Source of the DNA: Eledone cirrhosa
Taxonomy: Eukaryota
NCBI GenBank assembly: GCA_964016885.1
Contig: CAXHJY010000254.1
Span: 62,001 to 126,000, forward strand
DNA length: 64,000 bases
Reading direction: 5' to 3'
A model generated the notes under the pieces. The model was given only the letters and a program-made list of their open reading frames with translations, was not told where the DNA came from and ran no database searches. The position numbers and the translations under genes are program-made. The stretch's first letter is position 1, and each line of letters starts with the position of its first letter. Positions 5,927 through 57,050 of this stretch are shown here, piece after piece.

Positions 5927-5980
<54 letters not shown>

Positions 5981-6026
5981 CGTAAAATAAGAAAATTATA
6001 AAATTAACTTACTTACTAAAATATCA

Positions 6027-6104
6027 CTTCCAACTAATTAGTTTCTGGAATGGAATAAATATATTTTCCGAAGAAAACAGAGAATCATTCCGTCGTCAGG
6101 GAAG
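6027..6104 (-). ncRNA. Type I hammerhead ribozyme with extended stem II (family D1)
   Basis: CUUCC-CUGACGA-C GGAAUG..UGUUUUC UUCG GAAAAUA..CAUUCC A-GAAA-CUAAUUAG-UU-GGAAG. Confidence 0.85.
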
Positions 6105-6544
6105 ACTATTCTCATCTAAGTTTCCAGGCAAAGTGTGGACTCTGGAAACTTATTAAAAAATAATTCAGTGGATAGAAAATAGCAAAGCGTGGACTGAATT
6201 CCTAGCCATTGAGAAAATCACTGCCTCTGCGTCGGTGGCAAATTCAAAAAGAATCAATCACGTGACATCGAGGTCAATCAGTGAAAGTGGTTTGCTAATA
6301 AGACAGCGGCCTGCCTGCTACCATAGCAGCAGTCATGGCCAATATTGCTCGACAAATAATTTGGAGATAATTATAAAGAATTAATATCTAGTAACATATA
6401 TATACATACAGATGCATATCAATGCTAGCAAATATATAGGTTTTGTCTTAGTAACTTTGTGGTTCAATGCATGGGTTGCAGAACAATAATATGAGAGACG
6501 TAAAATAAAAAAATTATAAAATTAACTTACTTACTAAAATATCA

Positions 6545-6623
6545 CTTCCAACTAATTAGTTTCTGGAATGGAATAAATATATTTTCCGAAGAAAACACAG
6601 AGAATCATTCCGTCGTCAGGAAG
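6545..6623 (-). ncRNA. Family D1 hammerhead, second copy
   Basis: Same motif 518 bp away; 1-nt deletion in the 5' strand of stem I. Confidence 0.75.
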
Positions 6624-6781
6624 ACTTTTCTCATCTAAGTATCCAGGCAAAGCGTGGACTCTGGAAACTTATTAAAAAATAATTCAGTGGATAGAAAATA
6701 GCAAAGCGTGGACTGAATTCCTAGCCATTGAGAAAATCACTGCCTCTGCGTCGGTGGCAAATTCAATATATATATATATAT

Positions 6782-13862: not shown

Positions 13863-16800
13863 TCAGGATTTGGGCACCATGGCCCATTCGAGAAGAGAAT
13901 TACTGTTTGCGGAGACATATCCGGGTGTGGGTGGTTTGTCCGGGATTACTTGGAGGAATTTGTCCAAAGACTTCTTGAATTTTGTGTGGTCAGTTTCTGT
14001 TTTGACGTGTCCTGGTGTGATGTTGAAGAGAGCAGGGCCGATTGAGGTGAAATAATTGTGCCGTATTGTTGTTATGAGTTGCGATTTAGATTTTTGTATG
14101 GGACGGATAGCACGGGGCCCAAGCCTTGGGTGTATCTTGAAGGCGATGCCAACATCATTTGGGCAGTGATGATGGAACATTTTCCACATCATGCAGATAA
14201 TATAACGCTCACGGCGACGTTGGAGTGAGTATAGTTTCAGGTTTTCTAGTCGACCCCAGTAGTCAAGGTCTGACATGCCATCTATCTTTTTCGTGATTGC
14301 CCTTTGAGGAGCTTCAAGTTTCATGATACTTTGTTTCGTGTGGGGAGACCACAGTGGACAACAGTATTCAAGGTGTGGTCGGGCAAAAGTAGAGAAGAGA
14401 AGGATAATGGTGTGGGAATCTCTCGACTGGAAGGTTCTGAGGATCCAGGAACACATTCTGCGGGCCATGTCAACTTTGCTGCTTATATGCGTGGCCCAGC
14501 TTATGTTGCTGTCCACGGTTACTCCCAAGTCTCTGATGTTGTTAGATGCCACGAGAGTTTCCCCGGAGGGAAGGGAGTACGGGAGTTTCAGAGCATCCTC
14601 TTTTCCAAAGTGGATCAGTTCGAATTTGTCTTCGTTCGGTAACATGTTGTTCTTTTCCGTCCATTGGGTAACAGCCAGTAGGTCTGACTGAAGGCTTATC
14701 CGGTCATCCACGCCATTGATGACCTTTTGGAGCTTGGAATCATCAGCAAAAATTTTAATGTTGCTGTGTTTGATGATGTCAGTGATGTCAGTAATATAGA
14801 TGATGAAGAGAAGTGGGCCCAACACAGTGCCTTGTGGGACCCCACTACTGACTTTGGCTGGGCTGGATTTGACTCCTTCAACTACAGCATGTTGGGTTCT
14901 GTTTGACAGGAAGCTCTTGATCCACTGCAGCAGCTTTCCAGTGACACCAATATTGGACAGCTTTCTCAGTAGAATGTTATGATCAACCCTGTCAAAGGCC
15001 TTGCTGAAATCAAGGTAGATAACATCAGTGTTGGAACCCTCTCCCAAGGCTCTCAAAATGTCATCAAAGTGATGCAGTAGCTGCGTCAGGCAATCCCTTC
15101 CATTACGGAATCCATGCTGGTTGAAGTTCAGCATATTGTTACTCTCAAGGAAGTGGGTCATTCGCGATCTCACCACTCTCTCAAATACCTTAATGATATG
15201 AGAGGTGAGTGAGATTGGACGGTAATTCACGGCAAGGGATTTGTTTCCCTTTTTGAAAACTGGGACAACAGACTGGGATAGAAGGTTTTCTGGCACATAT
15301 CCAGCATCCAGTGAGTTCCGCCACAGATTGGCAAGAGGAGATGCAAGTTGGTGTTGACACGCCTTCAAGACACAAGCAGGGAACCTATTGGGACCTACTG
15401 CTGAATTATGCTTGATTTCCTTTATTGCCGCTAAGACATCAGGGGCGCCAAACGTTATGTCCGATAAGGTGTAATGGGGAGTAACATCGCCGATACAGCC
15501 CAGATCGGCCATATCAGGATTGCTGAAAACAGAGCAGTATTGTTTCTGCAGTATCTCACCCATGGTTTTAGCATTGTCTTGAAGAGTGCCATTTTCATCA
15601 ATTAGAGGGCCAACAGTAGAGCCAGTGATTTTGTGTTTTTTTGCAAATGAAAAGAACACTTTGGGATTGAGTTTGATCTTCTCAATGGCCCAGGCCTCTT
15701 CAGCTCTTCTCTGATTGTTGATGAGGGACATTATGTTGTTTTGGAGGTTATGTTTTTTAATCTCTAGTGATGAAATGGCAGTCAAGTTGATGTGTTGCTG
15801 CTGACAGTATTTCAACTTGTTGATTTTTTTGTTCGTTCTCTTAATTTTTCTGATGAGCGTTTTTCTATTTCTAGGGATTCTGCTCTTAGATTTGTTTATA
15901 GTTCTTAATGGGGTGTGTTTAGCACATATGTTTGTAACAGTGTCCACAAATGTCTGCCAGGACTTTTTGATGTTAGTGGGTGTATGAGTGTGCGTGAAGG
16001 ACCAGTCGACATGTGCAAGATCATGACTGATCGCTTCCCAGTTTGCATTGTGGAAATCCATAGCGTCAAACGGATGGACAGGAGAGATGACATTGGGTTT
16101 GTATATTGGGCGGTGGAATCTCAGATCACAGAGAACCATGTCATGATCAGAGAGTAGAGTTTTCTCCACTGCAATATTGTGGATATTGTCAGTGTGATTG
16201 CTGAAAATTAAGTCTAGGACGTTTTTGTGGCACCTCGTTGGTTCGAGCACCAGTTGGGATAGGAAGAAATCATCCATGAAGTCAAGAAGCGATTCCACTG
16301 CTTCCCTGTCAGAGGTTGAGGCAGAAGAACCTGGTGGCAGGCTGTTTGTGGACCAGTCAACTCCGGGGAGGTTGAAGTCCCCCATCATTAAGATGTTGTC
16401 AGGGTGACACTCTTGGATGAAACACTTTATGCTGTTGAGACATTCCTTGAAGCATGGTACAGGCGTTTGGGGTGGCCTATAGAGCCCAACTACTATTAGG
16501 TTGTTGGTTTGACTGAATACAGTGACTGCTTCACAGTATCCATTAGTGAATATGTTCATAGCCTCTGTTGAGAAAGAATTATGGACATAAATGGCAGTCC
16601 CGCCCTTTCTTCTGCCAGCGCGATCAGCACGGATGGCTTTGAAATTTTTCACTTTCACCTCGGCTTCCAAGTGGAGGTTACTGAGATGGGTTACTGAGTG
16701 AGGACGAAGAAAGGGATGTGGTTTGGATGGACATCAATCCAGTCCTCCAGGAATTTGATCTTCCATTTTTGAGTATTGGTGGAAGGGCTGATGCCTTGGG

Positions 16801-21750: not shown

Positions 21751-21813
21751 CACATATATATATATATATATATATATAATAAATAACAAAGAACGCCTAT
21801 AGCATATGCATAT

Positions 21814-21871
21814 CTTTACTTGCTAACATTGTTTCATCCGCACTATAAGTGGGACTCATCAGAGCATAAAG
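21814..21871 (-). ncRNA. Type I hammerhead ribozyme (family E), inverted pLTR copy
   Basis: Reverse complement of 22679-22736. Confidence 0.85.
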
Positions 21872-22678
21872 GTTAATTACATACCATACAAGCAATAACA
21901 AATCCAAGACATTGAAGAATGAAAGATAATAATAGACGATAAAGGATATTAAGGAAGTAAAAGTAAAAATAAAGATAAGAATAAAAATAAAAGTAAAAAT
22001 AAAAATAAAAATAAGAATAAGATAATAAAATAAACAATGAAAAATAAGCAATGAAAAATAAGGGGTGCTATCAGTCACAGTTGGGCGGGGTGCTGTCAAC
22101 ATATAGTTACATACAAGCATACACATGGATAAGAGAACAGACAAGAGTAGATAAGATAGATGGGATTAGGTAAGAGTAGGTAAAAAATAGGTGAAAAACA
22201 TTATATTATATTATGTTCTATTTATATAATTTTTAATTTTAATTTTATATTATTTTATCTCATTCCTTACCCTGTATCACTATTATCTGTATATTTTATA
22301 TTTTATATGTAAGTTTGTTATGTATTTCTTTATATTTTCTTATATATATTATAAGTCTGTTTTTCACCTATTTTTTACCTACTCTTACCTAATCCCATCT
22401 ATCTTATCTACTCTTGTCTGTTCTCTTATCCATGTGTATGCTTGTATGTAACTATATGTTGACAGCACCCCGCCCAACTGTGACTGATAGCACCCCTTAT
22501 TTTTCATTGTTTATTTTATTATCTTATTCTTATTTTTATTTTTATTTTTATTTTTACTTTTATTTTTATTCTTATCTTTATTTTTACTTTTACTTCCTTA
22601 ATATCCTTTATCGTCTATTATTATCTTTCATTCTTCAATGTCTTGGATTTGTTATTGCTTGTATGGTATGTAATTAAC

Positions 22679-22736
22679 CTTTATGCTCTGATGAGTCCCA
22701 CTTATAGTGCGGATGAAACAATGTTAGCAAGTAAAG
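22679..22736 (+). ncRNA. Type I hammerhead ribozyme (family E)
   Basis: CUUUA UGCU-CUGAUGA-GUCC CACU UAU AGUG C GGAU-GAAA-CAAUG-UU-AGCA AG UAAAG. Confidence 0.87.
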
Positions 22737-22938
22737 ATATGCATATGCTATAGGCGTTCTTTGTTATTTATTATATTACGGCTCTGTCCTCAGACATTGA
22801 GCTAACCTTATACTGCCTGCTGGATAAGTGGTGTGTTATACACCCCTGATCCTTTCCCTAGTATACTATACGGCTCCCACTGGTTGAGCTTAAACTTTGA
22901 TATACGCGGATTTGTGTCCTTGTATATTATCAGGCAGT

Positions 22939-25427
22939 ATGCTAACAAAGACATACTTACCCATTTCCTTGAAGAATATTCCCACCCCCCTAAAATCTCA
23001 TATGAGAAATCATTGATAACTAGCATAAACTCATTCGTAAAACGTGTTCGGTGGCGTGCGTTCCACTTTGATAAGAAGTATGATAGCCCTGAAGAGAGGC
23101 GTAGTTTTAATAATTATGGATTTAAGACCTATAGGAGCCCCCCGCATAATAGCCTGTTGGATAACTTCGAAAGTGAGCTATTATCCCTTGTTAGGAATAT
23201 TAGATATAAAAAATCTAGATGTACCAATAAATTTCAGAGTAAACTAAGTTCAATCGTTAGGGACTTTAGGGATAATAAATCCATTCTGGTCCCCTCTGAC
23301 AAAACTAAAAACTTATATAGTATGGATTATAAAACCTATCGAGGCTTCATTTATAATGAACTACATAGGAACTACAAAAAAACAACGCAGAGTAATTTAG
23401 ATAATATTAATCTGGAGGGGTATAACATAGTGGTAAAACTAGGTCTGGATAAACACACTCAGCCTTATTACCCCAAGCAGCCTAGATTCACCCTCAAGGA
23501 CCACAAGGAAGATTTTATTAGTAGACCCTCAGTTAGGCTTATCTGCCCCTCCAAGTCTGACCTGGGGATTATTAGTAAGGGAATCTTGGATAGCGTTATT
23601 CCCCTGGTTAGAGAAAAAACTTTCCTTGAGCTTTGGGGTAACACTAGTGAGGTCATTACGTGGTTCTCTACGGATTGTGGTCGTGACTCACTAAAATTCA
23701 TCCAATTTGATATTGATGCTTATTATACATCTATATCTCCTATTATCCTCAATAAGGCCCTCATCCTAGCCATGCAGAGGGGGGCAATTACTAGGCCACA
23801 GATAGATATTGTTCTCGCTGCACGTAAAACCATTATCATGTTTGAGGATAATCTATGGACGAGAAAAAACACACCTGATAATTTTGACATTACTATGGGG
23901 TCGAGTGACTCTGCTCAAGTCACCGACTTAGTTGGGCTATACCTCCTCAATGAACTGCATAGTAACTTCCCTTTCCTTAGGGGCGGGTTGTACCGGGATG
24001 ACGCCCTACTCTCCATAGATACTAGTAAGTATAATATAGTGCGCATTAGGAAAAAGCTGCATAGCTTTTTTAAAACATTTAACCTATCCATTACTATGGA
24101 TGTAAATGATAGAACTGTGAACTTCCTGGATGTTACACTGGACTTGGATAACCATACGTACACACCGTACCATAAGCCTAATGAATTGCTGACTTACGTG
24201 AATACCAACTCCAACCACCCTAGGTCTGTCATCAGCGGTATACTGAAGGGCGTATCTAACAGAATAAGTTCACTCTCACATAGTGAGGAGGCGTTTGACT
24301 CGCAAGCTGATTACTATAACGACGCCTTAGCTAGATCCGGCTTTAGGGACAAATTGTATTACACCCAGGGAAATAATGGTCCTAATAGTAGCTCTACCAG
24401 TGTTGTTATAACACATAATATGTCCATTGGTAATCGAGGTGTCGCGAATGGGAGGGTTCTAAATGCCGGTGGAATGAAGCAGCAGGGCACCATTAGTCTA
24501 AGTAATAACAATAGAGGTGTCGTGAACGGGAGGTTTCTAGATGCCGGTGGAATGAACCAGCAGGGCACCATTAGTCTAAGTAATAGCAATGGTAGGCCTC
24601 GCAGCTCCCCGCATAGACTAGGTGAGCATAGGAACCGTAGAAATAATAATGCTAATAATACTGATGGAAATAGAAAGAATAAAAAGAATAGAAGAAGATT
24701 GAATACATACTTCAACCCCCCTTTTAATTCTGAAGTGGCTATAAATATTCCTAGGGCCTTCTTCTCTGTGTTAGAAAGGAACTTCCCTCCTGGTAATAGG
24801 TACCACTCTATCCTCAATAAGAATGTTGTTAAACTTTCGTATTCTACAACCCAAAATCTGGCCTCTCATCTGGCCATTACTAATAATAAGAAAATAAAGG
24901 AAGGCCTGGACAACCTAAGCCTAGGGGAAAACACGGTAGTGGACAGAGCGGGCAGAAACACTAGTGGTGATCATTCTGAGAATAGCATCACCAGAGGTTG
25001 TAACTGTAGAAGGGCTTCAGGCTGCCCCCTGAATGGTTTCTGCCTTGTTAGAAACATAGTTTATGCGTGTGATGTAGTAACTACGGCGTCCACTAAGACC
25101 TATATAGGATCAACCTCCACCCCCTTTAAGACCAGGTTTAACTCTCATCAATGCACTTTTAGACATAATAAACTGAGGAACTCCACCTCCTTGGCAGCGT
25201 ACGTCCATAATTTAAAAAATGCACGAACACGTTACACACTTACTTGGCGGCAGGTTGCTAAATCCCATCCATATACTCCTCATAATAGAGTATGTAACCT
25301 ATGCCTTGCCGAATCCCACTCTATTATATTTGCTAAATGCCCTCTACTAAATAGAAAGTCTGAAATATTTTCCTCTTGCCCCCACCGAATATTAAGCTCT
25401 TTCTTCTACTTTAAACCTGTTAGCTAG
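22939..25427 (+). CDS. PLE reverse transcriptase with C-terminal GIY-YIG endonuclease; probable start ATG 22939 with a 1-nt frameshift in the C run at 22985-22990
   Basis: SLKNIP.P / KRVRWRA, SDKTKNLY, FDIDAYY, ITMGSSDSAQ, LYRDD, NFLDVTL, CNC..CPL..C, IVY..TYIGST..FKTR..H, CNLC. Confidence 0.92.
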
Positions 25428-27002
25428 CACTTCCTTATTCCTCCAGTTGGGCTGTCTTGTGTAACTGTCTCTGACTGTGTGTAACTGTCTCCTATTGTTG
25501 GTCGTCTATGTATACGAGTCGGTGAATGTATACGTATGCCTGTGGGAGGATATTGATCTGGATATTGGGGTGTGCAGGTGAGTGGGTGTGTATGTTAATA
25601 AGCACCCCTGTTTGGCACAGTGGATGTAACCCATCCACGCTCGCCTACCCACCATTGGTGCATCGGTGGGTCTATCCTGACGTATATCTTGTTGATCTGT
25701 ACCTCTGTATGCGCATGAGTTGTGATGTAATGTATTTATGTAAAGCGTGTACTGCGATTTAGGCTGCACTAGTAGAAATTTAGCCTGTAACTGTGGGCGG
25801 ACCCGTGCCATCCCGCCGTAAGCAGTGGATACGTAGCGCATGTACGTGTTGCCCTCACATTCTGTGGTTCAAGATCTACAGGCTGACCTCTGGGAGCTCC
25901 TGCCCGGGGTTGTAGTCTTTCTAGCACGATCGGCCTTCCATATATGGACGGTCGTTGTTATGATCCCGAAAGTAACGTTTTGGCCCCGATAGCCCTCCGT
26001 AGTTACTAACGGTCTGTGTACACTTGAATCGGGCAATGGCACGTGCGGACATGAATATCTCCGTAGGATTTCAACTTTATTTTACTACATCTCATCGTAT
26101 GTATTTATTTTGAATGTATTACCTGTGGTGGTGGGACTGGTCTAATGTGGTATTTCGGTGTTTAATATCAGCTTTGACCCGGGTGTCCTACGCTGTGTGT
26201 GTGTGCGTGTGTGTCCGTGTATACATTTATATGTGTATGGGTGTAGGTGGTTGTATGTGTCTGTATATAAAAAAATATATATATATATATATGTATACCG
26301 TCTCTGCATATGCATGTGGTGTGTATATGTGCATATACGTGCTGAAGATATTGATGTGTACAATCTTGTGATGTCCCAATGCGGTGACTTAATGGCTCTT
26401 GAAGCTATTTTTTATATATCTTCTGTCTTTTTATATATCTTTTGTATGCGCTACAACTGTGTCTGCTTGCTTTGGCTAACCCGCCTGCACCTCGCTTTGC
26501 TAATGCACGTGAATTCTTCTACCTCCTTCGATGCACCTCTCTCTGACCATTGGACTCCTGCCCGGGTGTGAACCGGTTTGTGATTACCCCACCGCTCAAC
26601 TGTGTGAATGCACACCCGTGACTGTCGAGTGAACTTTTGAGACTGCCCAACCTGGGACGCCTCCATTGCCTTGCAATGGTCAAGTGATACTGGTGACTGT
26701 GACACTTAGTGCCTTCGTGGGCCCCTCATGTTTTCAAGAAATATATTTTTAAAAAATGGTCAAGTGATACACATAACTGTGACACTTAGTGCCTTCGTGG
26801 GCCCCTGATATATTCAAGAGATATATTCTAAAAAAATATATATCTTATCTCAATTTACTTTATTTCATTTTATTTTATTTTATTTTATTTCATTTCATGT
26901 TATCTAATTTTATTTATTTACTTATTTAACTCCATTTATTTATTTATTTATTTAAATTTAAATTTAAATTTAAATTTTATTTATTTATTTAATATTTAAT
27001 TT

Positions 27003-27042
<40 letters not shown>

Positions 27043-27617
27043 TTACATTTAATTACATTTAATTATATCTTATATTATATTATTTTAATTTAGTCTATGT
27101 TATTTGATTTTAGTTTACCTTATTTTATCTTATTTTACGATTATATTATATTATGTTCTATTTATATAATTTTTAATTTTAATTTTATATTATTTTATCT
27201 CATTCCTTACCCTGTATCACTATTATCTGTATATTTTATATTTTATATGTAAGTTTGTTATGTATTTCTTTATATTTTCTTATATATATTATAAGTCTGT
27301 ATTCACCTATTTTTTACCTACTCTTACCTAATCCCATCTATCTTATCTACTCTTGTCTGTTCTCTTATCCATGTGTATGCTTGTATGTAACTATATGTTG
27401 ACAGCACCCCGCCCAACTGTGACTGATAGCACCCCTTATTTTTCATTGTTTATTTTATTATCTTATTCTTATTTTTATTTTTATTTTTATTTTTACTTTT
27501 ATTTTTATTCTTATCTTTATTTTTACTTTTACTTCCTTAATATCCTTTATCGTCTATTATTATCTTTCATTCTTCAATGTCTTGGATTTGTTATTGCTTG
27601 TATGGTATGTAATTAAC

Positions 27618-27675
27618 CTTTATGCTCTGATGAGTCCCACTTATAGTGCGGATGAAACAATGTTAGCAAGTAAAG
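27618..27675 (+). ncRNA. Family E hammerhead in the 3' pLTR
   Basis: Identical to 22679-22736. Confidence 0.87.
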
Positions 27676-27826
27676 ATATGCATATGCTATAGGCGTTCTT
27701 TGTTATTTATTATATTACGGCTCTGTCCTCAGACATTGAGCTAACCTTATACTGCCTGCTGGATAAGTGAAGTGTTATACACCCCTGATCCTTTCCCTAG
27801 TATACTATATATATATATATACATAC

Positions 27827-46703: not shown

Positions 46704-48053
46704 ATGTCTGGAAAGCAACAAATGAAACCAACAGAATCAGAAAGAATTCTAAAGGAGATATCATCGAAATTATCAACACTTATCACGATGATGGACACAC
46801 AATCCTCTATTTTAAAGGAAATAGAAAAACAATCTACAGACGGAAAACTTATAACTGAACATATAAACTCTGAAATTAAGAATTTAGCTGAAATTATACC
46901 AACAGTTATCAAAGATACAAGAGAAAGCCTACCACAACCCCCTTGGATGTCAGAAATAAACGAAAGAAATTTGGAAAACAAAACACATCAAATAAGAAAA
47001 GAAATGTGGAAGACATGGAAAAAATTCCTTAACATAAGAAAACAAAATTTCTGGAAAGCATACAGATGCGAAAAATATGTCGAAACACATTCGAAATGGC
47101 TCTCTCTAACGGCACCCATACTCCCTCGTAAATACCTAATTACAGAAATTGCAGGAGAACCAGAAGAAGAAACAAAACTCCGATGGGAACTTACATTGAC
47201 AAAATTCAGGACCGACATCTCCATTTCTGAATGTAAACAATCCCGCTACAAAGCCAAATATGAAGCTATTGATGACCAAATTGAAGTTGAAATTTCAAAG
47301 CTAACGACTGGTATTATAGCTGAAAAACTACGAGAACTATGGATCGGAGATATCTCAAAAGAAGAAAACAAATCAAGAAAGGTATGGCAGCAGAAACAAT
47401 TATTTCTCGATGAATATGCTGCAAATTACGGTAAAGACTCTGGAACCCCGAGAAAAAGCATTAAAAGTGGACAATCTCATCAACACAACATACGCCAGAA
47501 CACGTGCCAACACAAACGCTCACCTTACCTTGAATCAAAGAAGAACTACGGTAATAACTCTTCGCTTTTTCTACAAAAACACCCTATCGCACACAACATG
47601 AACAAAAAGCACAAACACGATAGGTATTCCTTTGACCAGACCATGAGAAGTAGTAAAACCAGGAGATCATTCTCAAGATCTCAACAGAGACTACCAACAA
47701 GGAATGTGGAAACAAAACGTAGAATAACCAGATCACTCTCAAGATCTCAACAGAGATTGCCCACAAGAAACTGGACGAAAAAACGATCTAAACCTGAAAG
47801 CAAACCTAGGTCATTTTCCCAGATTGTTAAAAATAATGCTAACAGGAAGAAAAATAATATACAGAATACCAAAAATAGGACAAAATACATAACGAAACCA
47901 AATATAATATCACGACCAAAAGTTCATCAAGCGAACACCAACAGGAATATAAATCCTGAACAGAGAAAAATTCATTTTTTAACGTCAGGACAACAAAAAC
48001 CGGAAAAAGAAAAACTCCAGGAGGAAACATACCCAAAACAGCTGTACACGTAG
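46704..48053 (+). CDS. PLE ORF1 (449 aa): helical/coiled-coil-like N-terminal half, basic low-complexity C-terminal half with a 22-aa-period repeat
   Basis: Uninterrupted ORF from ATG 46704; heptad-like ILKEISSKLSTLITMMDTQSSILKEI; RS(F/L)SRSQQRLPTRN twice. Confidence 0.75.
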   Translation: MSGKQQMKPTESERILKEISSKLSTLITMMDTQSSILKEIEKQSTDGKLITEHINSEIKNLAEIIPTVIKDTRESLPQPPWMSEINERNLENKTHQIRKEMWKTWKKFLNIRKQNFWKAYRCEKYVETHSKWLSLTAPILPRKYLITEIAGEPEEETKLRWELTLTKFRTDISISECKQSRYKAKYEAIDDQIEVEISKLTTGIIAEKLRELWIGDISKEENKSRKVWQQKQLFLDEYAANYGKDSGTPRKSIKSGQSHQHNIRQNTCQHKRSPYLESKKNYGNNSSLFLQKHPIAHNMNKKHKHDRYSFDQTMRSSKTRRSFSRSQQRLPTRNVETKRRITRSLSRSQQRLPTRNWTKKRSKPESKPRSFSQIVKNNANRKKNNIQNTKNRTKYITKPNIISRPKVHQANTNRNINPEQRKIHFLTSGQQKPEKEKLQEETYPKQLYT

Positions 48054-50287
48054 ATCCTAAAATAATTAATTTATCTAAAAGAGATCTTGACAATGATGAA
48101 ATGCAAATTCTGTCAAAAGGACTGAAATTCACACCGACTCCAACAGTCAACCACCAAGAACTGAAGGAGGATACCCAAGAATTCTGTCGAAAATTACGTC
48201 TTGTAGAATTCTTCGCTGATAAAAATAATGAGAGTGATGAATCACTAGTAAAGAATAAATCAAATTTCACTCCGCCAAAAGGAAGAAATATTTATCTCGA
48301 CCAATACATTGACATCCTGTCTAAATTTCCTCTTAGACATAATACTAATGTTAGGCCAAACATTAACAAATCAGAAATGTCTGCACTTAAACGTATACAA
48401 AATGATAAAACAATAATAATTAAACAAGCAGATAAAGGGGGTGCAGTTGTTATAATGGATACTGAATACTACAAGGATTTGGTTGAGGAACAACTGAAAG
48501 ACACAACATTCTATCATGAAATACCGTCAAATATAGACCACAACATCATGAAGAAGATCAACAACCTGGCTTCAAAATACCACAACTCATTTACTGATAA
48601 GGAAAGAGACTACATCACCAATTTTGAGCCGAAACCCAGCAACTTGTATGGCCTACCGAAAGTTCACAAGTCAAAAGAAATACAACTGGCAGTAAGAGAA
48701 CAAAACAGTGAGTACATTAAATTATTACACCCAAAAGACTTAAAACTTAGACCTATTATAGCTGGTCCAACATGCCCCACTCACCGTCTAAGCAATTTTG
48801 TTGACATTATTTTGAAACCACTATGTATTCACATACCCAGTTTCATCCGGGATGATATCGACTTCCTGTCCCATCTTCCCAAAACCACGGAAACGAATTC
48901 ACTTCTACTCAGTTTTGATGTGGTAAGCCTTTACACCAACATTACACATGATTTAGGAATAAAGGCGGTTAAATACTGGGTGGAAAAACATAGAGAAGTG
49001 ATTCCCATTAGATTCACAGCGCCATTTATATTAGACGCAGTTAAACTTATTCTGGAAAACAACACTTTCTTCTTCAATGGAAAGAATTACATCCAAATTA
49101 GAGGCACAGCGATGGGAACGAAGTTTGCTCCCGTTTACACGAACTCTGTAATGGGATACTTAGAACAACAACTCTACCAAGAAATAGAGGAAAAATATAG
49201 TACTGACTTTAGAAAGTACATTGAAAAATCTTGGAAGAGATACCTTGACGACTGTTTCATCATCTGGACAGAATCTCTAGATACTCTGGATGAGTTCAAT
49301 ATCCTCCTGAATAACCTACACCCATCTCTCCAATTCACAAAAGAGATGAGTAGGACCAAATTACCATTCCTAGATATAATGATAATCAAAAACGACACCA
49401 CCATTACCACGGATATATATTATAAACACACAGACACCCATCAATATCTGAATTTTAAGTCGTGCCATCCACCTCATACAAAACGCAACATCCCATACTG
49501 CCTAGTCAGAAGAATTTGTACCATTGTAGAAGATACGAATACCAGGTACAAACGCCTAACAGAACTAAGAGAATTTTTGCTCAAACAAAAATACCCATCT
49601 CTACTTATAGAAAATGGCATACAGCGGGCTATAAAAATACCTATACAACAACTTAGAACAACCCAAGGAAGAAGAAACCAAGAACTGGTCATACCATTTA
49701 TAATGACACACAACCCATGTCACCAGAATATATTCAACACTGCCAAAGCAAACCTACCGATCATTGCTCAAAGTAATGAATTAAAAGGCTTAATCACAGA
49801 TCGATCTTTGACTCTTAGTAAAAGACAGCCAAAAAATTTGAAGCAATTGCTAACAAAAGCAAAGTTTGACCTTAACAACAAAGACCAATCATTCACTGTA
49901 TCTAAATGAAATGATAATCGATGCGGCACATGTCAATCCATACACGCCGGTCAATATATGAAAACAAAAACTGGAAAAATATTCCCAAATGCAAATATGA
50001 ACTGCAAAAGCAGAAATCTAATTTACTGCATTAAATGCCCGAATTGTGAAGAACTATGTGTCGGTCAAACTGGAAATGCACTATCGGAACGTGCACGGGT
50101 ACACCGTCAACAAATCAGAGACCCAAATGTCCGTCAGATACCCCTAAGCGGCCACCTGGCAACATGTGGTCAGGGAATATTTATAATATTCCCATTCTAC
50201 AAATTACACAGCCCAAGTGAAATCAAGAGAAAAATCAAAGAAAAGAATTTTATTGATAAATTCAAACCCAAGCTAAATGAACAATAA
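47975..50287 (+). CDS. PLE RT plus GIY-YIG endonuclease; -1 frame relative to ORF1; one in-frame TGA at 49907
   Basis: IINLS..L..E..IL.KGLKFTPTP, ADKGG, YGLPKVHK, RPII, FDVVSLYT, GTAMG, RYLDD, PFLD, LIYCIKC..C...CVGQTG..L.ER...H. Confidence 0.92.
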
Positions 50288-53187: not shown

Positions 53188-53253
53188 TATTTTATCTGAA
53201 GAAGGCATGCCATATTTTTAATATGGTATCCCCGAAATATGTATAATGAAATA
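53188..53253 (+). ncRNA. Type I hammerhead (family G2)
   Basis: UAUUUUAU-CUGAAGA-AGGCAUGCCAUAUU UUU AAUAUGGUAUCCCC-GAAA-UAUGUA-UA-AUGAAAUA. Confidence 0.75.
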
Positions 53254-55019: not shown

Positions 55020-57050
55020 CATATATATATACATATATTTTAAGGATACTATTTATGGTTATGTATATAATAAAACCTTTTATGGTTATATATATTTAAA
55101 CTCTAAATAGTGAAAGACAGTAATTCATTACTATCTTATTACCAGTAAGATAAATAGCTCAATGTAATAACATCAGTTGTTTTACAGAGCAGTTATATAG
55201 AAATTACATGAATCAAAGTTCAGTTTAAATAATTTATTTGCTTACAATTGTTTCCTCCAAACCGAGGTTTGGATTCTTCGGAGCAACTATTTAGTGATTT
55301 TTCACATACTTTACCTCCTTATCAACACAAGAGACATACAAAAACATATGTATATATTGACCCACAGTGGGTTGACATCCATCATAATGATATAGCATGG
55401 CAATTTACATACAAAGGTTACATTCATATTAAAGGACAAAATTAAAGTTAAAATAAAAATAAAAATAAAACATTGGCAGTTTATGAAGATAAAGCAAGAG
55501 GAAAGTTTAGAGTAGTCAGTGTATGAAACAGTCTCGCGTGTGGCATGCACGCGTGTCTTATTAATACAGGATTATAGTGCGGCAGATTGTTACATGTAAA
55601 AACAAGCAGTTAAAGCAGGCAATCAATAGCATCATGGGGGCTGTATTGTTAAAGCATTTATCACACACACCTGTACGATATATAAGCCCGTTTGTAGAGA
55701 AACACCAAAAATATCAAAAATATTACAAATGAGAAGCAAAACAGCACCACTGTCCTCGCACCCACCACCACTCACACAATCCAGGAAACGCAATTTATAG
55801 ACTACATGTCCATTACTCAATCCACGGTGATTCAACATTGGGTGTCTGGTGAATCATGATATAAATCATATCTTGTCGTTTCTTAATTTGATTCATAGAT
55901 CAGGTTGTTTTTGTTATGAGAGATGACATTGTATTATATTCCGGAAGTGTGTGTGTGACTAAGGGGAGTTAATGCGTAAGGGGAGGTAACTAGCTGATTA
56001 TCATAGTTAAATTTATTATCCTAAAGTACATTAATGGTGTTTCAAATGAGTCCCTATCATATAACGTTATAAACAATTTCTAAATTTAAGTATCTTATCT
56101 ATAAATTACAGTGTAGTCTATTAAGAAGTACTAAAGGTGTTCATATCCGTATGATTACCTTCTATCATGGAGTGCCACAACCGAACATTCTACAAGAAGA
56201 GTCAGACCTCCAAATCAATGATCTTTGTAAGTGTAGTCCACCCGCAGAACCTGGCAGGGTCTTATTACTATATATGACTCCCGGTAAGCTCTGGGTCATT
56301 GTATGTCTGAATGCACGGCAAAGTTAAATATCACCAGGGTGGTCCAGAGATCAATTCTCTCATACAAAGACACTAATCTGGCCACCAAGCCATACATATA
56401 CTCATAACTCATATATCACCTGTATATAATTCATTGTACTCAGCATATAGAATATATAGCCCTTATAATAAATTCAATACTTAATCTTCTATCTATCCTA
56501 TGGTGGCACTCCATGCACAGGACAATGTTAGCACAACCAATTCAGTGCCTACAGTATACATTAATTATATATTAGTGCAATGTAGTCCAAGTAATTCAAT
56601 ATACCAAAAGTAGAAGTACATGGGGATATCTCTAGGGTAAAGGTACTATTATGGTTAAAGTGGACTAATGGGTGTGGAGATGAGGTGTAAGGTGTGCCCC
56701 TGATGCTAGTTGCTAGAGGTGGTGTCGGGTTCAAGTCTGACATTGTTATATTTTGGGTTTAAAGTTTTGGAAAGAGTGTCGGAATCGGTGTTGGTAAGAC
56801 GCGAACACTTCTGATTTTTTATTAAGGAGGTTATAGTTAGAGAAGATGAAAGTATGGGTCTCTAGTAGACAGAGGTTACAAAATTTATTAGGTGGTTTGT
56901 ACGATGTCGCATTACCTATCACTTCCCATTTAAGTGTATATGGTTTATTTTTAGTTTTAGATAGTGTATGTAGCTAGATAGTGAAGTGGAGTTGGCTAGA
57001 CTGTGTTTTTTGAAAGAGTGGAGGTGCGAATTGTATACATATATATATAC

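What the first reader, a model, noticed from the sequence alone, without database searches (positions are those of the whole stretch)
6027..6104. Hammerhead variant with extended, covarying stem II and a conserved C.A at the stem II base
Seen: the D1 motifs (6027-6104, 6545-6623) and the D2 motif (37617-37698) keep CUGANGA, GAAA and the stem III ACUAAUUAGU, but differ by compensatory changes. Stem I is CUUCC/GGAAG versus ACUCC/GGAGU, and stem II is GGAAUG/CAUUCC versus GUAAUG/CAUUAC. A distal hairpin has wholly different sequence yet stays paired (UGUUUUC-UUCG-GAAAAUA versus AUAGUUACA-UUG-UGUAACUAU). The internal loop AUUCUC/AUUUAUYC is conserved. Both families have C.A where canonical HHRs have the G10.1-C11.1 pair. 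Inference: a selected HHR architecture with a ~50-nt stem II domain that short-stem motif searches would miss. The conserved internal loop may be a tertiary or protein-binding site.
Basis: partly seen in the sequence, partly recalled or inferred. Interest (0 to 1): 0.75.

Follow-up and report, generated by a model that had tools for sequence, protein, structure and literature searches.

The report
Pseudoknot-braced hammerhead in Penelope-driven repeats
About ten thousand copies of a short non-coding jumping repeat in this animal genome carry a hammerhead (self-cutting RNA) motif with an unusually long arm that is predicted to be braced by an extra base-paired knot, and copies that begin exactly at the predicted cut site suggest it likely cuts in living cells.

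Summary
The G-C pair is not lost. It is invariant and sits one step out, between an extra nucleotide after A9 (C, or A in one subfamily) and an extra A before G12; that same C..A layout is already tabulated for a Chara Penelope element. The 'conserved internal loop' UUCUC is predicted to pair with GAGAA just upstream of stem I. In one lineage that pair occurs as G-C (652), A-U (643), G.U (39) and A.C (11). The motif sits in about 10,000 copies of a 507-571-bp non-coding tandem unit. These insert in (TA)n with two fixed 3' ends and share bulged tail hairpins with an intact Hydra-clade Penelope element, the likely driver. 67 copies start exactly at the cut site against 8 three bases upstream, and 9 of 26 inspected events are head-to-head fusions there, which suggests cleavage in vivo. 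A distant family keeps the whole fold. No cleavage assay or RNA data exist, and one key paper was unreadable. The scan noted this family before on other DNA. Verdict: a new variant of a known kind.

The parts
5975..6766 (-). D1 insertion: about 1.5 tandem units (518-bp monomer), non-coding, 5'-truncated, 3' end at +61 from the cut site, inside (TA)n
   Evidence: relatives 98% identical genome-wide
6027..6104 (-). Hammerhead copy 1: stem I 6100-6104 with 6027-6031; core CUGACGA 6093-6099; extra C 6092; stem IIa 6086-6091 with 6047-6052; extra A 6046; GAAA 6042-6045; palindromic stem III 6033-6042; predicted cut between 6032 and 6031 (after GUU)
   Evidence: sequence
6080..6085 (-). 5' strand of the stem II internal loop (AUUCUC); predicted pseudoknot strand
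6108..6113 (-). Leader GAGAAU, 3 nt upstream of stem I; predicted pseudoknot partner of the loop
   Evidence: duplex -6.2 kcal/mol
6115..6153 (-). Upstream hairpin (UUUCCAG/CUGGAAA in D1, changed on both sides in other subfamilies); its outer extension can also pair with the leader
   Evidence: z -3.4 and -3.2 for the longer fragments
6258..6265 (.). TCACGTGA palindrome conserved across most subfamilies; E-box-like (label recalled), possible internal promoter element, untested
6348..6366 (-). Second bulged tail hairpin, just behind the +178 end site
6462..6484 (-). First bulged tail hairpin GUUC-UGCA..UGCA-UU-GAAC, starting at +66, just behind the +61 end site; shared with the Hydra-clade element
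6545..6632 (-). Hammerhead copy 2 with its leader (6627-6632); one C lost at the stem I/core junction
37438..38120 (-). D2 insertion: about 1.3 units of a related subfamily (73% identical to D1), 3' end at about +186
37617..37706 (-). Hammerhead of D2 with loop strand 37673-37678 and leader 37701-37706
22688..25427 (+). Hydra-clade Penelope-like element: short hammerhead at 22688, bulged hairpin 22781-22802, 873-codon open frame with RWR, DKT and CxCX5C motifs; type of element that likely mobilises D1/D2

Best explanation
This is a type I hammerhead motif of the Penelope kind, carried by about 10,000 copies of a 507-571-bp non-coding tandem repeat, in which a 6-bp stem II is extended by an internal loop and a distal hairpin, and the loop's UUCUC is predicted to pair with GAGAA upstream of stem I to brace a fold that likely cuts the RNA after GUU. 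Shown: motif, covariation, copy number, element layout, two fixed 3' ends in (TA)n, and an excess of copies starting at the cut site. Inferred: (1) The pseudoknot holds stems I and II parallel, in place of the usual loop-loop contact, and offsets the 1x1 N.A mismatch and weak stem III; the palindromic stem III would also let two neighbouring units form a dimer. (2) A Hydra-clade Penelope protein would bind the two bulged tail hairpins, nick (TA)n on both strands and start reverse transcription at +61 and +178, giving inverted insertions. (3) Most templates are read through the ribozyme (uncut multimers or re-ligated RNA), but when the template was cut the cDNA stops at +1, and two such cDNAs join head to head.
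For: Copy number: 9,152 plus 837 exact motif matches, reversed-pattern controls 0. Stem IIa: pair 2 is G-C 106, A-U 82, U-A 80, C-G 34 of 302 unique motifs, none mismatched; pair 5 is U-A or G-C in 286 of 302. Formal count on 20 representatives: 97.8% of 275 cells paired, 6 of 14 pairs changed on both sides, 0 of 500 shuffles as high, slid controls 34-61%. Pseudoknot central pair in the GGAAUG lineage: G-C 652, A-U 643, G.U 39, A.C 11. On a tree built without the motif, A-U copies form one clade (100/99) and most G.U copies a small clade beside it. Distant family E (21 exact matches, ~481-bp unit, no frame found, almost no BLAST similarity to D) keeps C..A, a different 6-bp stem IIa, UGAGAAA/UUUCUCA, a different palindrome (ACCGCGGU) and a GUA site. 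Ends: of 59 D1 arms 19 ran on through the 300-nt reference, 21 ended at +61 and 16 at +178-183; 18 and 13 of those are followed by TA repeats. Starts: 67 rows at +1, 8 at -3, 37 at +3. Of 30 of the 67 rows inspected (26 events), 23 are true starts and 9 are head-to-head fusions at the cut. The bulged hairpin is shared by D, E and the window's Hydra element and is readable by eye in three published Hydra consensus sequences of coral and sea cucumber. That Hydra family has many 94-100% identical copies, several with 844-873-codon frames.
Against: No cleavage assay and no RNA data. The pseudoknot rests essentially on one central compensatory change in one lineage plus family E; three of the other four pairs vary on one side only and one never varies. 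The leader can instead extend the upstream hairpin, and G-to-A would also favour that. The hammerhead fold is not the predicted minimum-energy fold for D1. My first start-site histogram on biased loci showed no spike at +1 (1 of 585 arms at 0). The start patterns differ in stringency, and +3 is also raised. No protein-coding element with this exact hammerhead was found; the link to Hydra rests on shared hairpins, target and layout. Penelope hammerheads cut poorly in vitro (PMC4209133), were dispensable for insertion in the one reconstituted system (PMC11167929), and 8 of 9 Xenopus retrozyme dimers did not cut (bioRxiv 10.64898/2026.07.22.740005).
Confidence: 0.75

Rival explanations
1. The fold is selected as a protein-binding or packaging structure with little or no catalysis; the long stem II and loop dock a protein, and copies start at +1 because reverse transcriptase stalls at the structure.
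For: Most copies read through the motif. A 1x1 mismatch beside the core and a GUU site are likely to slow cleavage (established knowledge; PMC3088659 section 8). Catalytic mutants did not affect insertion in Poseidon_Ac.
Against: A stall at stem I should stop the enzyme near +5/+6, not at the scissile bond (inference). Head-to-head fusions join two arms at +1 with 0-1 added bases. The loop has a Watson-Crick partner that covaries.
Confidence: 0.13
2. It cuts, but GAGAA/UUCUC acts as a switch or an inter-unit (trans) pairing rather than a brace within one unit: the leader alternates between the upstream hairpin and the loop.
For: Predicted folds pair the leader with the upstream U-tract in both D1 and D2. 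Low read-through stopping suggests cleavage is held back.
Against: Spacing is constant (stem I of 5 bp plus a short linker; loop 6 bp from the core) in D and in family E, as expected for a brace between stems I and II (PMC3088659 section 7 passages).
Confidence: 0.2
3. The elements spread mainly through single-unit RNA circles (rolling-circle copying), as proposed for classical non-LTR retrozymes.
For: Tandem arrays; tandem neighbours share a hypervariable tetramer in 11 of 15 pairs against 126 of 879 between loci. The circular D1 monomer folds better than shuffles, z -4.6 on 40 shuffles. Circles are shown for mussel retrozymes (PMC7229834 section 14).
Against: One circle predicts identical units, yet 4 of 15 tandem pairs and 5 of 9 inverted pairs differ, which fits mixed multimers or template switching. 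Starts at +1 need a linear cut end. No RNA evidence.
Confidence: 0.3

Closest known systems
Minimal/variant type I hammerheads of Penelope-like elements (Cervera and de la Pena 2014, PMC4209133; parts 1-2 of 4 and supplement parts 1-2 read, descriptor seen as passages)
   Same: Fits their consensus CUGANGAH-G N5..N5 C-GAAAN-palindrome-NUH: extra nucleotide after A9, invariant G-C, 6-bp helix II, short helix I, palindromic helix III. Their descriptor allows an extra N11, and 1 of 56 listed second cores reads AGAAA.
   Different: Loop 2 there is at most 10 nt and no tertiary contact is described. Here 30-39 nt lie inside helix II (internal loop plus hairpin), the extra A is fixed, and a leader/loop pseudoknot covaries.
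PLE-X1_cBra and Hydra-clade hammerheads (Craig et al. 2021, PMC8557442; passages, section 11, File S2 table read)
   Same: PLE-X1_cBra has exactly C..A around a 6-bp G-C-closed stem II; several Hydra motifs have U..U there. Hydra elements target (TA)n and have 3-4-bp stems III.
   Different: Those sit in protein-coding elements and have short loops; no pseudoknot column and no mention of hairpins in the main text.
Metazoan non-LTR retrozymes (Cervera and de la Pena 2020, PMC7229834, passages and section 14; Li, Clavereau and Pollet 2026, bioRxiv 10.64898/2026.07.22.740005, parts 1-3 of 5)
   Same: Non-coding tandem units with one type I hammerhead each, thousands of copies, proposed Penelope dependence; a U.U at the base of helix II in axolotl HHR_Amex2.
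   Different: Longer unit than the 170-400 nt circles described; non-canonical hammerhead; circles not shown here; mostly 1-3 units with inverted arms and two fixed ends.
Pseudoknot-stabilised hammerheads (Perreault et al. 2011, PMC3088659, passages and section 8)
   Same: Watson-Crick pairing between stem I and stem II regions, tested by compensatory mutants, found in all three types; U10.1.U11.1 tolerated.
   Different: The tested and drawn cases I read use terminal loops or tails with short stems II. Here the partner is an internal loop in a long bipartite stem II. Not the PK hammerhead of PMC11300833 (part 1 of 6 read), where the pseudoknot replaces helix II.
Poseidon_Ac tail and internal priming (Frangieh et al. 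2024, PMC11167929; parts 1-2 of 4)
   Same: Two priming sites downstream of the hammerhead, both target strands nicked, AT-rich target.
   Different: Tail here is 117-123 nt against 30-40; they found no RNA reads ending at the cut site, whereas genomic copies here pile up at it.

Membership tests
Type I hammerhead ribozyme | Core CUGANGA, GAAA and NUH around three helices, open at stem I | tested here: met
   GUU in 287 of 302 motifs, GUA in family E
Type I hammerhead ribozyme | G10.1-C11.1 pair directly beside A9 and G12 | tested here: not met
   G-C present and invariant but displaced by one extra nucleotide on each side; published variants share this
Type I hammerhead ribozyme | Site-specific self-cleavage | not testable with these tools
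   only indirect: excess of copies starting at +1
Penelope minimal hammerhead | Extra nucleotide between 9 and 10.1, helix II of about 6 bp, palindromic helix III | tested here: met
   two different palindromes in D and E
Penelope minimal hammerhead | Short loop 2 (at most 10 nt), no recognisable tertiary contact | tested here: not met
   30-39 nt inside helix II and a covarying leader/loop pairing
Non-LTR retrozyme | Non-coding tandem units, one type I hammerhead per unit, high copy | tested here: met
Non-LTR retrozyme | Abundant circular monomer RNA | not testable with these tools
   no RNA holder listed
Penelope-type insertion | Partial tandems, inverted 5'-truncated arm, optional tail (two 3' ends), microsatellite target | tested here: met
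Non-autonomous derivative of a Hydra-clade element | Sequence homology to the ends of a coding partner | tested here: inconclusive
   no significant alignment to the window's Hydra tail (11 of 200 shuffles as high), but the bulged hairpins and their position are shared; no coding element with this hammerhead found
Type-SGC (non-circularly permuted) hammerhead | Scrambled strand order | tested here: not met
   strands are in ordinary type I order; PMC10085705 passages

The most novel reading that the evidence does not exclude
An undescribed hammerhead architecture: a leader-to-internal-loop pseudoknot on a long two-part stem II with a fixed extra A. It is old enough to span unrelated repeat families, active in vivo, and throttled so that cut RNA sets the 5' end of new insertions. 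These parasites of Hydra-clade Penelope elements would give the first genome-scale record that Penelope-associated hammerheads cleave their transposition template.
Probability: 0.45. Interest if true: 0.68.

Novelty: new variant of a known kind. Interest (0 to 1): 0.52.

Why it matters
What hammerheads do in endonuclease-bearing Penelope elements is described as unclear (PMC8557442), and the one reconstituted system found them dispensable (PMC11167929). Here thousands of natural copies give a footprint of cutting and a ready set of natural mutants (G-C, G.U, A-U pseudoknot forms; C or A at the extra position), so the question becomes directly testable. The fold also shows that standard descriptors and Rfam miss a 10,000-copy ribozyme family. 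The shared bulged hairpins point to the signal by which Hydra-clade proteins choose RNA and priming sites.

Tried and rejected
Rfam: whole window at E<=1 (best 150 of 427 shown, nearly all miRNA hits on TA repeats) and the D1 region at E<=10 gave no hammerhead. Viral contigs: 0 of 65 had both a stem and a leader. No other animal genome could be searched. Expression: no RNA holder listed; three runs of contigs from one sample only show presence. Splicing idea (GTAAGT near +15, CTTAG before the leader): 0 spliced-junction copies, but the pattern covered only subfamilies reading GG-R-R-GTGA. The cluster of arm starts at +13 to +21 I attribute to fold-back at an AT-rich hairpin. Faulty patterns, not used as evidence: matched no subfamily; swamped by a subfamily with an extra G; wrong code at -5; structure one column off; redone in 88. 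Of the 11 A.C rows, the window's copy 2 is a register shift that still has GAGAA. Coding partner: Penelope fragments lie in 31 of 162 loci for six queries, but the 14 loci mapped show junctions, not a shared element; the protein search returned only the window's own Hydra family. Lunse et al. 2017 was not held, so overlap with its variants is unchecked. Literature searches showed no description of this fold in titles, abstracts or the passages read. Supplements of the bioRxiv preprint were not seen, and file 1 of PMC4209133 was not searched.

Full report
Observation. The three motifs lie on the minus strand at 6027-6104, 6545-6623 and 37617-37698. Read 5' to 3', copy 1 is stem I (CUUCC), CUGACGA, C, GGAAUG, a 33-nt inner part, CAUUCC, A, GAAA, the palindrome ACUAAUUAGU, U, then GGAAG. 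Copy 2 lacks one C at the stem I/core junction. Rfam finds no hammerhead here even at E<=10. Folding energy alone is unremarkable.

The host element. Each motif belongs to a tandem unit: 518 bp for D1, about 531 bp for D2. The genome is 3.0 Gb in 1,796 contigs; I did not determine the species. It holds 9,152 exact matches with the GAGAA leader and 837 with GAAAA, controls 0; these count motifs, not insertions. 77 distinct monomers fell into 19 clusters at 90% identity, 61-90% alike and 507-571 bp among the representatives, alignable along the whole unit. No coding frame was seen. Insertions are partial tandems, often with an inverted arm. They end at +61 or +178 from the cut site in D1 and at +66 or +186-189 in D2, mostly followed by TA repeats. 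This is the Penelope insertion signature (PMC8557442 passages; PMC11167929).

Covariation. In 302 unique motifs (a sample enriched for odd variants by my searches) stem IIa pair 2 was G-C 106, A-U 82, U-A 80 and C-G 34, and pair 5 was U-A 204 or G-C 82. Distal hairpins differ wholly in sequence; most of the 30 commonest inner parts fold into the distal hairpin, some weakly or differently. On 20 representatives the named structure had 97.8% of cells paired and 6 of 14 pairs changed on both sides; no shuffle of 500 reached this and slid controls gave 34-61%. The sequences are related, so these numbers are not probabilities.

The C.A question. The G after the C is invariant in representatives (20 of 20). 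169 copies lack it, and the 100 listed show no compensating partner. The 5' nucleotide is C in most subfamilies and A in one. The 3' A is almost fixed: 12 copies have C there and none of them is a clean deletion. So G-C is kept, flanked by a 1x1 N.A mismatch. The extra 5' nucleotide is a described feature of Penelope hammerheads. An extra 3' nucleotide is allowed in the published descriptor and appears in 1 of 56 listed cores, and PLE-X1_cBra shows C..A exactly. The mismatch alone is therefore not new.

The loop. UUCUC is the exact complement of GAGAA, a few nucleotides upstream of stem I, in most subfamilies sampled. In the GGAAUG lineage the central pair is G-C in 652 copies, A-U in 643, G.U in 39 and A.C in 11. 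A tree of 111 monomers built without the motif places A-U copies in one supported clade and most G.U copies in a small clade beside it. That fits a G-C to G.U to A-U path, though it is one event and the order is not proven. One A-U sub-lineage also has GAAAAG facing CUUUUC. A relaxed search found family E, with a different stem I, stem IIa (GAUCUC/GGGAUC), palindrome (ACCGCGGU) and GUA site, yet the same C..A and a 7-bp UGAGAAA/UUUCUCA match. Pseudoknots between stems I and II are known to be needed for fast cleavage in many hammerheads, while Penelope hammerheads are described as lacking tertiary contacts (PMC6155905 passages). Against: the leader can also extend an upstream hairpin.

Does it cut? 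A first histogram on biased loci showed no spike. Earlier scan notes claimed one, so I tested genome-wide in subfamilies reading GGAGTGAAA. Copies starting at +1 gave 67 rows, at -3 gave 8, and at +3 gave 37 after removing 40 rows of another subfamily. The patterns differ somewhat in stringency. I inspected 30 of the 67 rows, which are 26 events: 23 true starts, 2 insertions in intact motifs and 1 internal deletion cluster; 9 are head-to-head fusions with both arms starting at or within 3 nt of the cut. A cut RNA end explains this most simply. Only a small share of copies stop there, so most templates were uncut or re-ligated. Units within one insertion are usually but not always the same variant (11 of 15 tandem pairs, 4 of 9 inverted pairs, 126 of 879 between loci), which argues against a single circle as the only template.

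The driver. Just behind the first 3' end lies a hairpin GYUC-UR..YA-UH-GARC with a 2-nt bulge. It occurs in D, in E, in several other repeat contexts and in the window's element at 22688-25427 (shuffled controls gave 1-11 per Mb against 388 matches in D context). That element carries the Hydra-clade motifs RWR, DKT and CxCX5C, and its family is young, with intact frames. The same hairpin can be read by eye in Hydra-2_Amil, Hydra-1_Ajap and Hydra-2_Ajap. A second such hairpin follows the second end site in D and in the Hydra element (lead from note e1-8673755). No coding element with this hammerhead was found, so the driver is inferred.

Comparison and verdict. It works like a Penelope-type hammerhead in a non-LTR retrozyme. 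It meets the core and layout tests and departs from described members by the long two-part stem II, the fixed extra A and the pseudoknot. Catalysis and circles are untested, and Lunse et al. 2017 could not be read. The scan described this family before on other DNA (e1-9962588, e1-9585305); those notes are not independent support. New variant of a known kind; interest 0.52.

Noticed in passing
window 21779-21914, 22636-27809: Young Hydra-clade Penelope element with an intact 873-codon frame, three short hammerheads and twin bulged tail hairpins; Pfam finds no domain in it.
   Followed up: partly
window 38303-38357, 40027-40081, 45469-45524, 53196-53251: Another hammerhead-like family (CUGANGA-A-GG..CCC-U/C-GAAA) in inverted pairs; one pair flanks a Penelope RT/GIY-YIG frame at 47960-50287.
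   Followed up: no
window 55157-55189 (minus strand): A further copy of the bulged tail hairpin (GCUC..UU-GAGC) from an unidentified repeat family also seen in L126, L320, L409.
   Followed up: no
G000 family E, e.g. L414-L434: Older, low-copy ~481-bp tandem family with the same hammerhead architecture but a different sequence; ends near +83 and +220-245.
   Followed up: partly
L360-L362 (G000:C1:299080958-299081487): A copy in which the whole hammerhead is deleted between the leader and the cut site, present with two inverted derivative arms.
   Followed up: no
D units, +15 and about -95 from the cut: GTAAGT (splice-donor-like, label recalled) and CTTAG (acceptor-like) are conserved, also AGTAAGT in family E and AGCAAGT in the Hydra element; no spliced copies in a limited search.
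   Followed up: partly
D1 family, first bases of the distal hairpin: A hypervariable tetramer with 8 variants among 43 otherwise 98% identical copies.
   Followed up: partly
window 29557-33728, 13863-16733, 34719-37362: An LTR retrotransposon pol frame (RT, RNase H, integrase) and two LINE frames; ordinary neighbours.
   Followed up: no
L397, L404 and G000:C4:346128960: Other CUGANGA..CAGAAAC matches with long spacers that may be further hammerhead variants.
   Followed up: no
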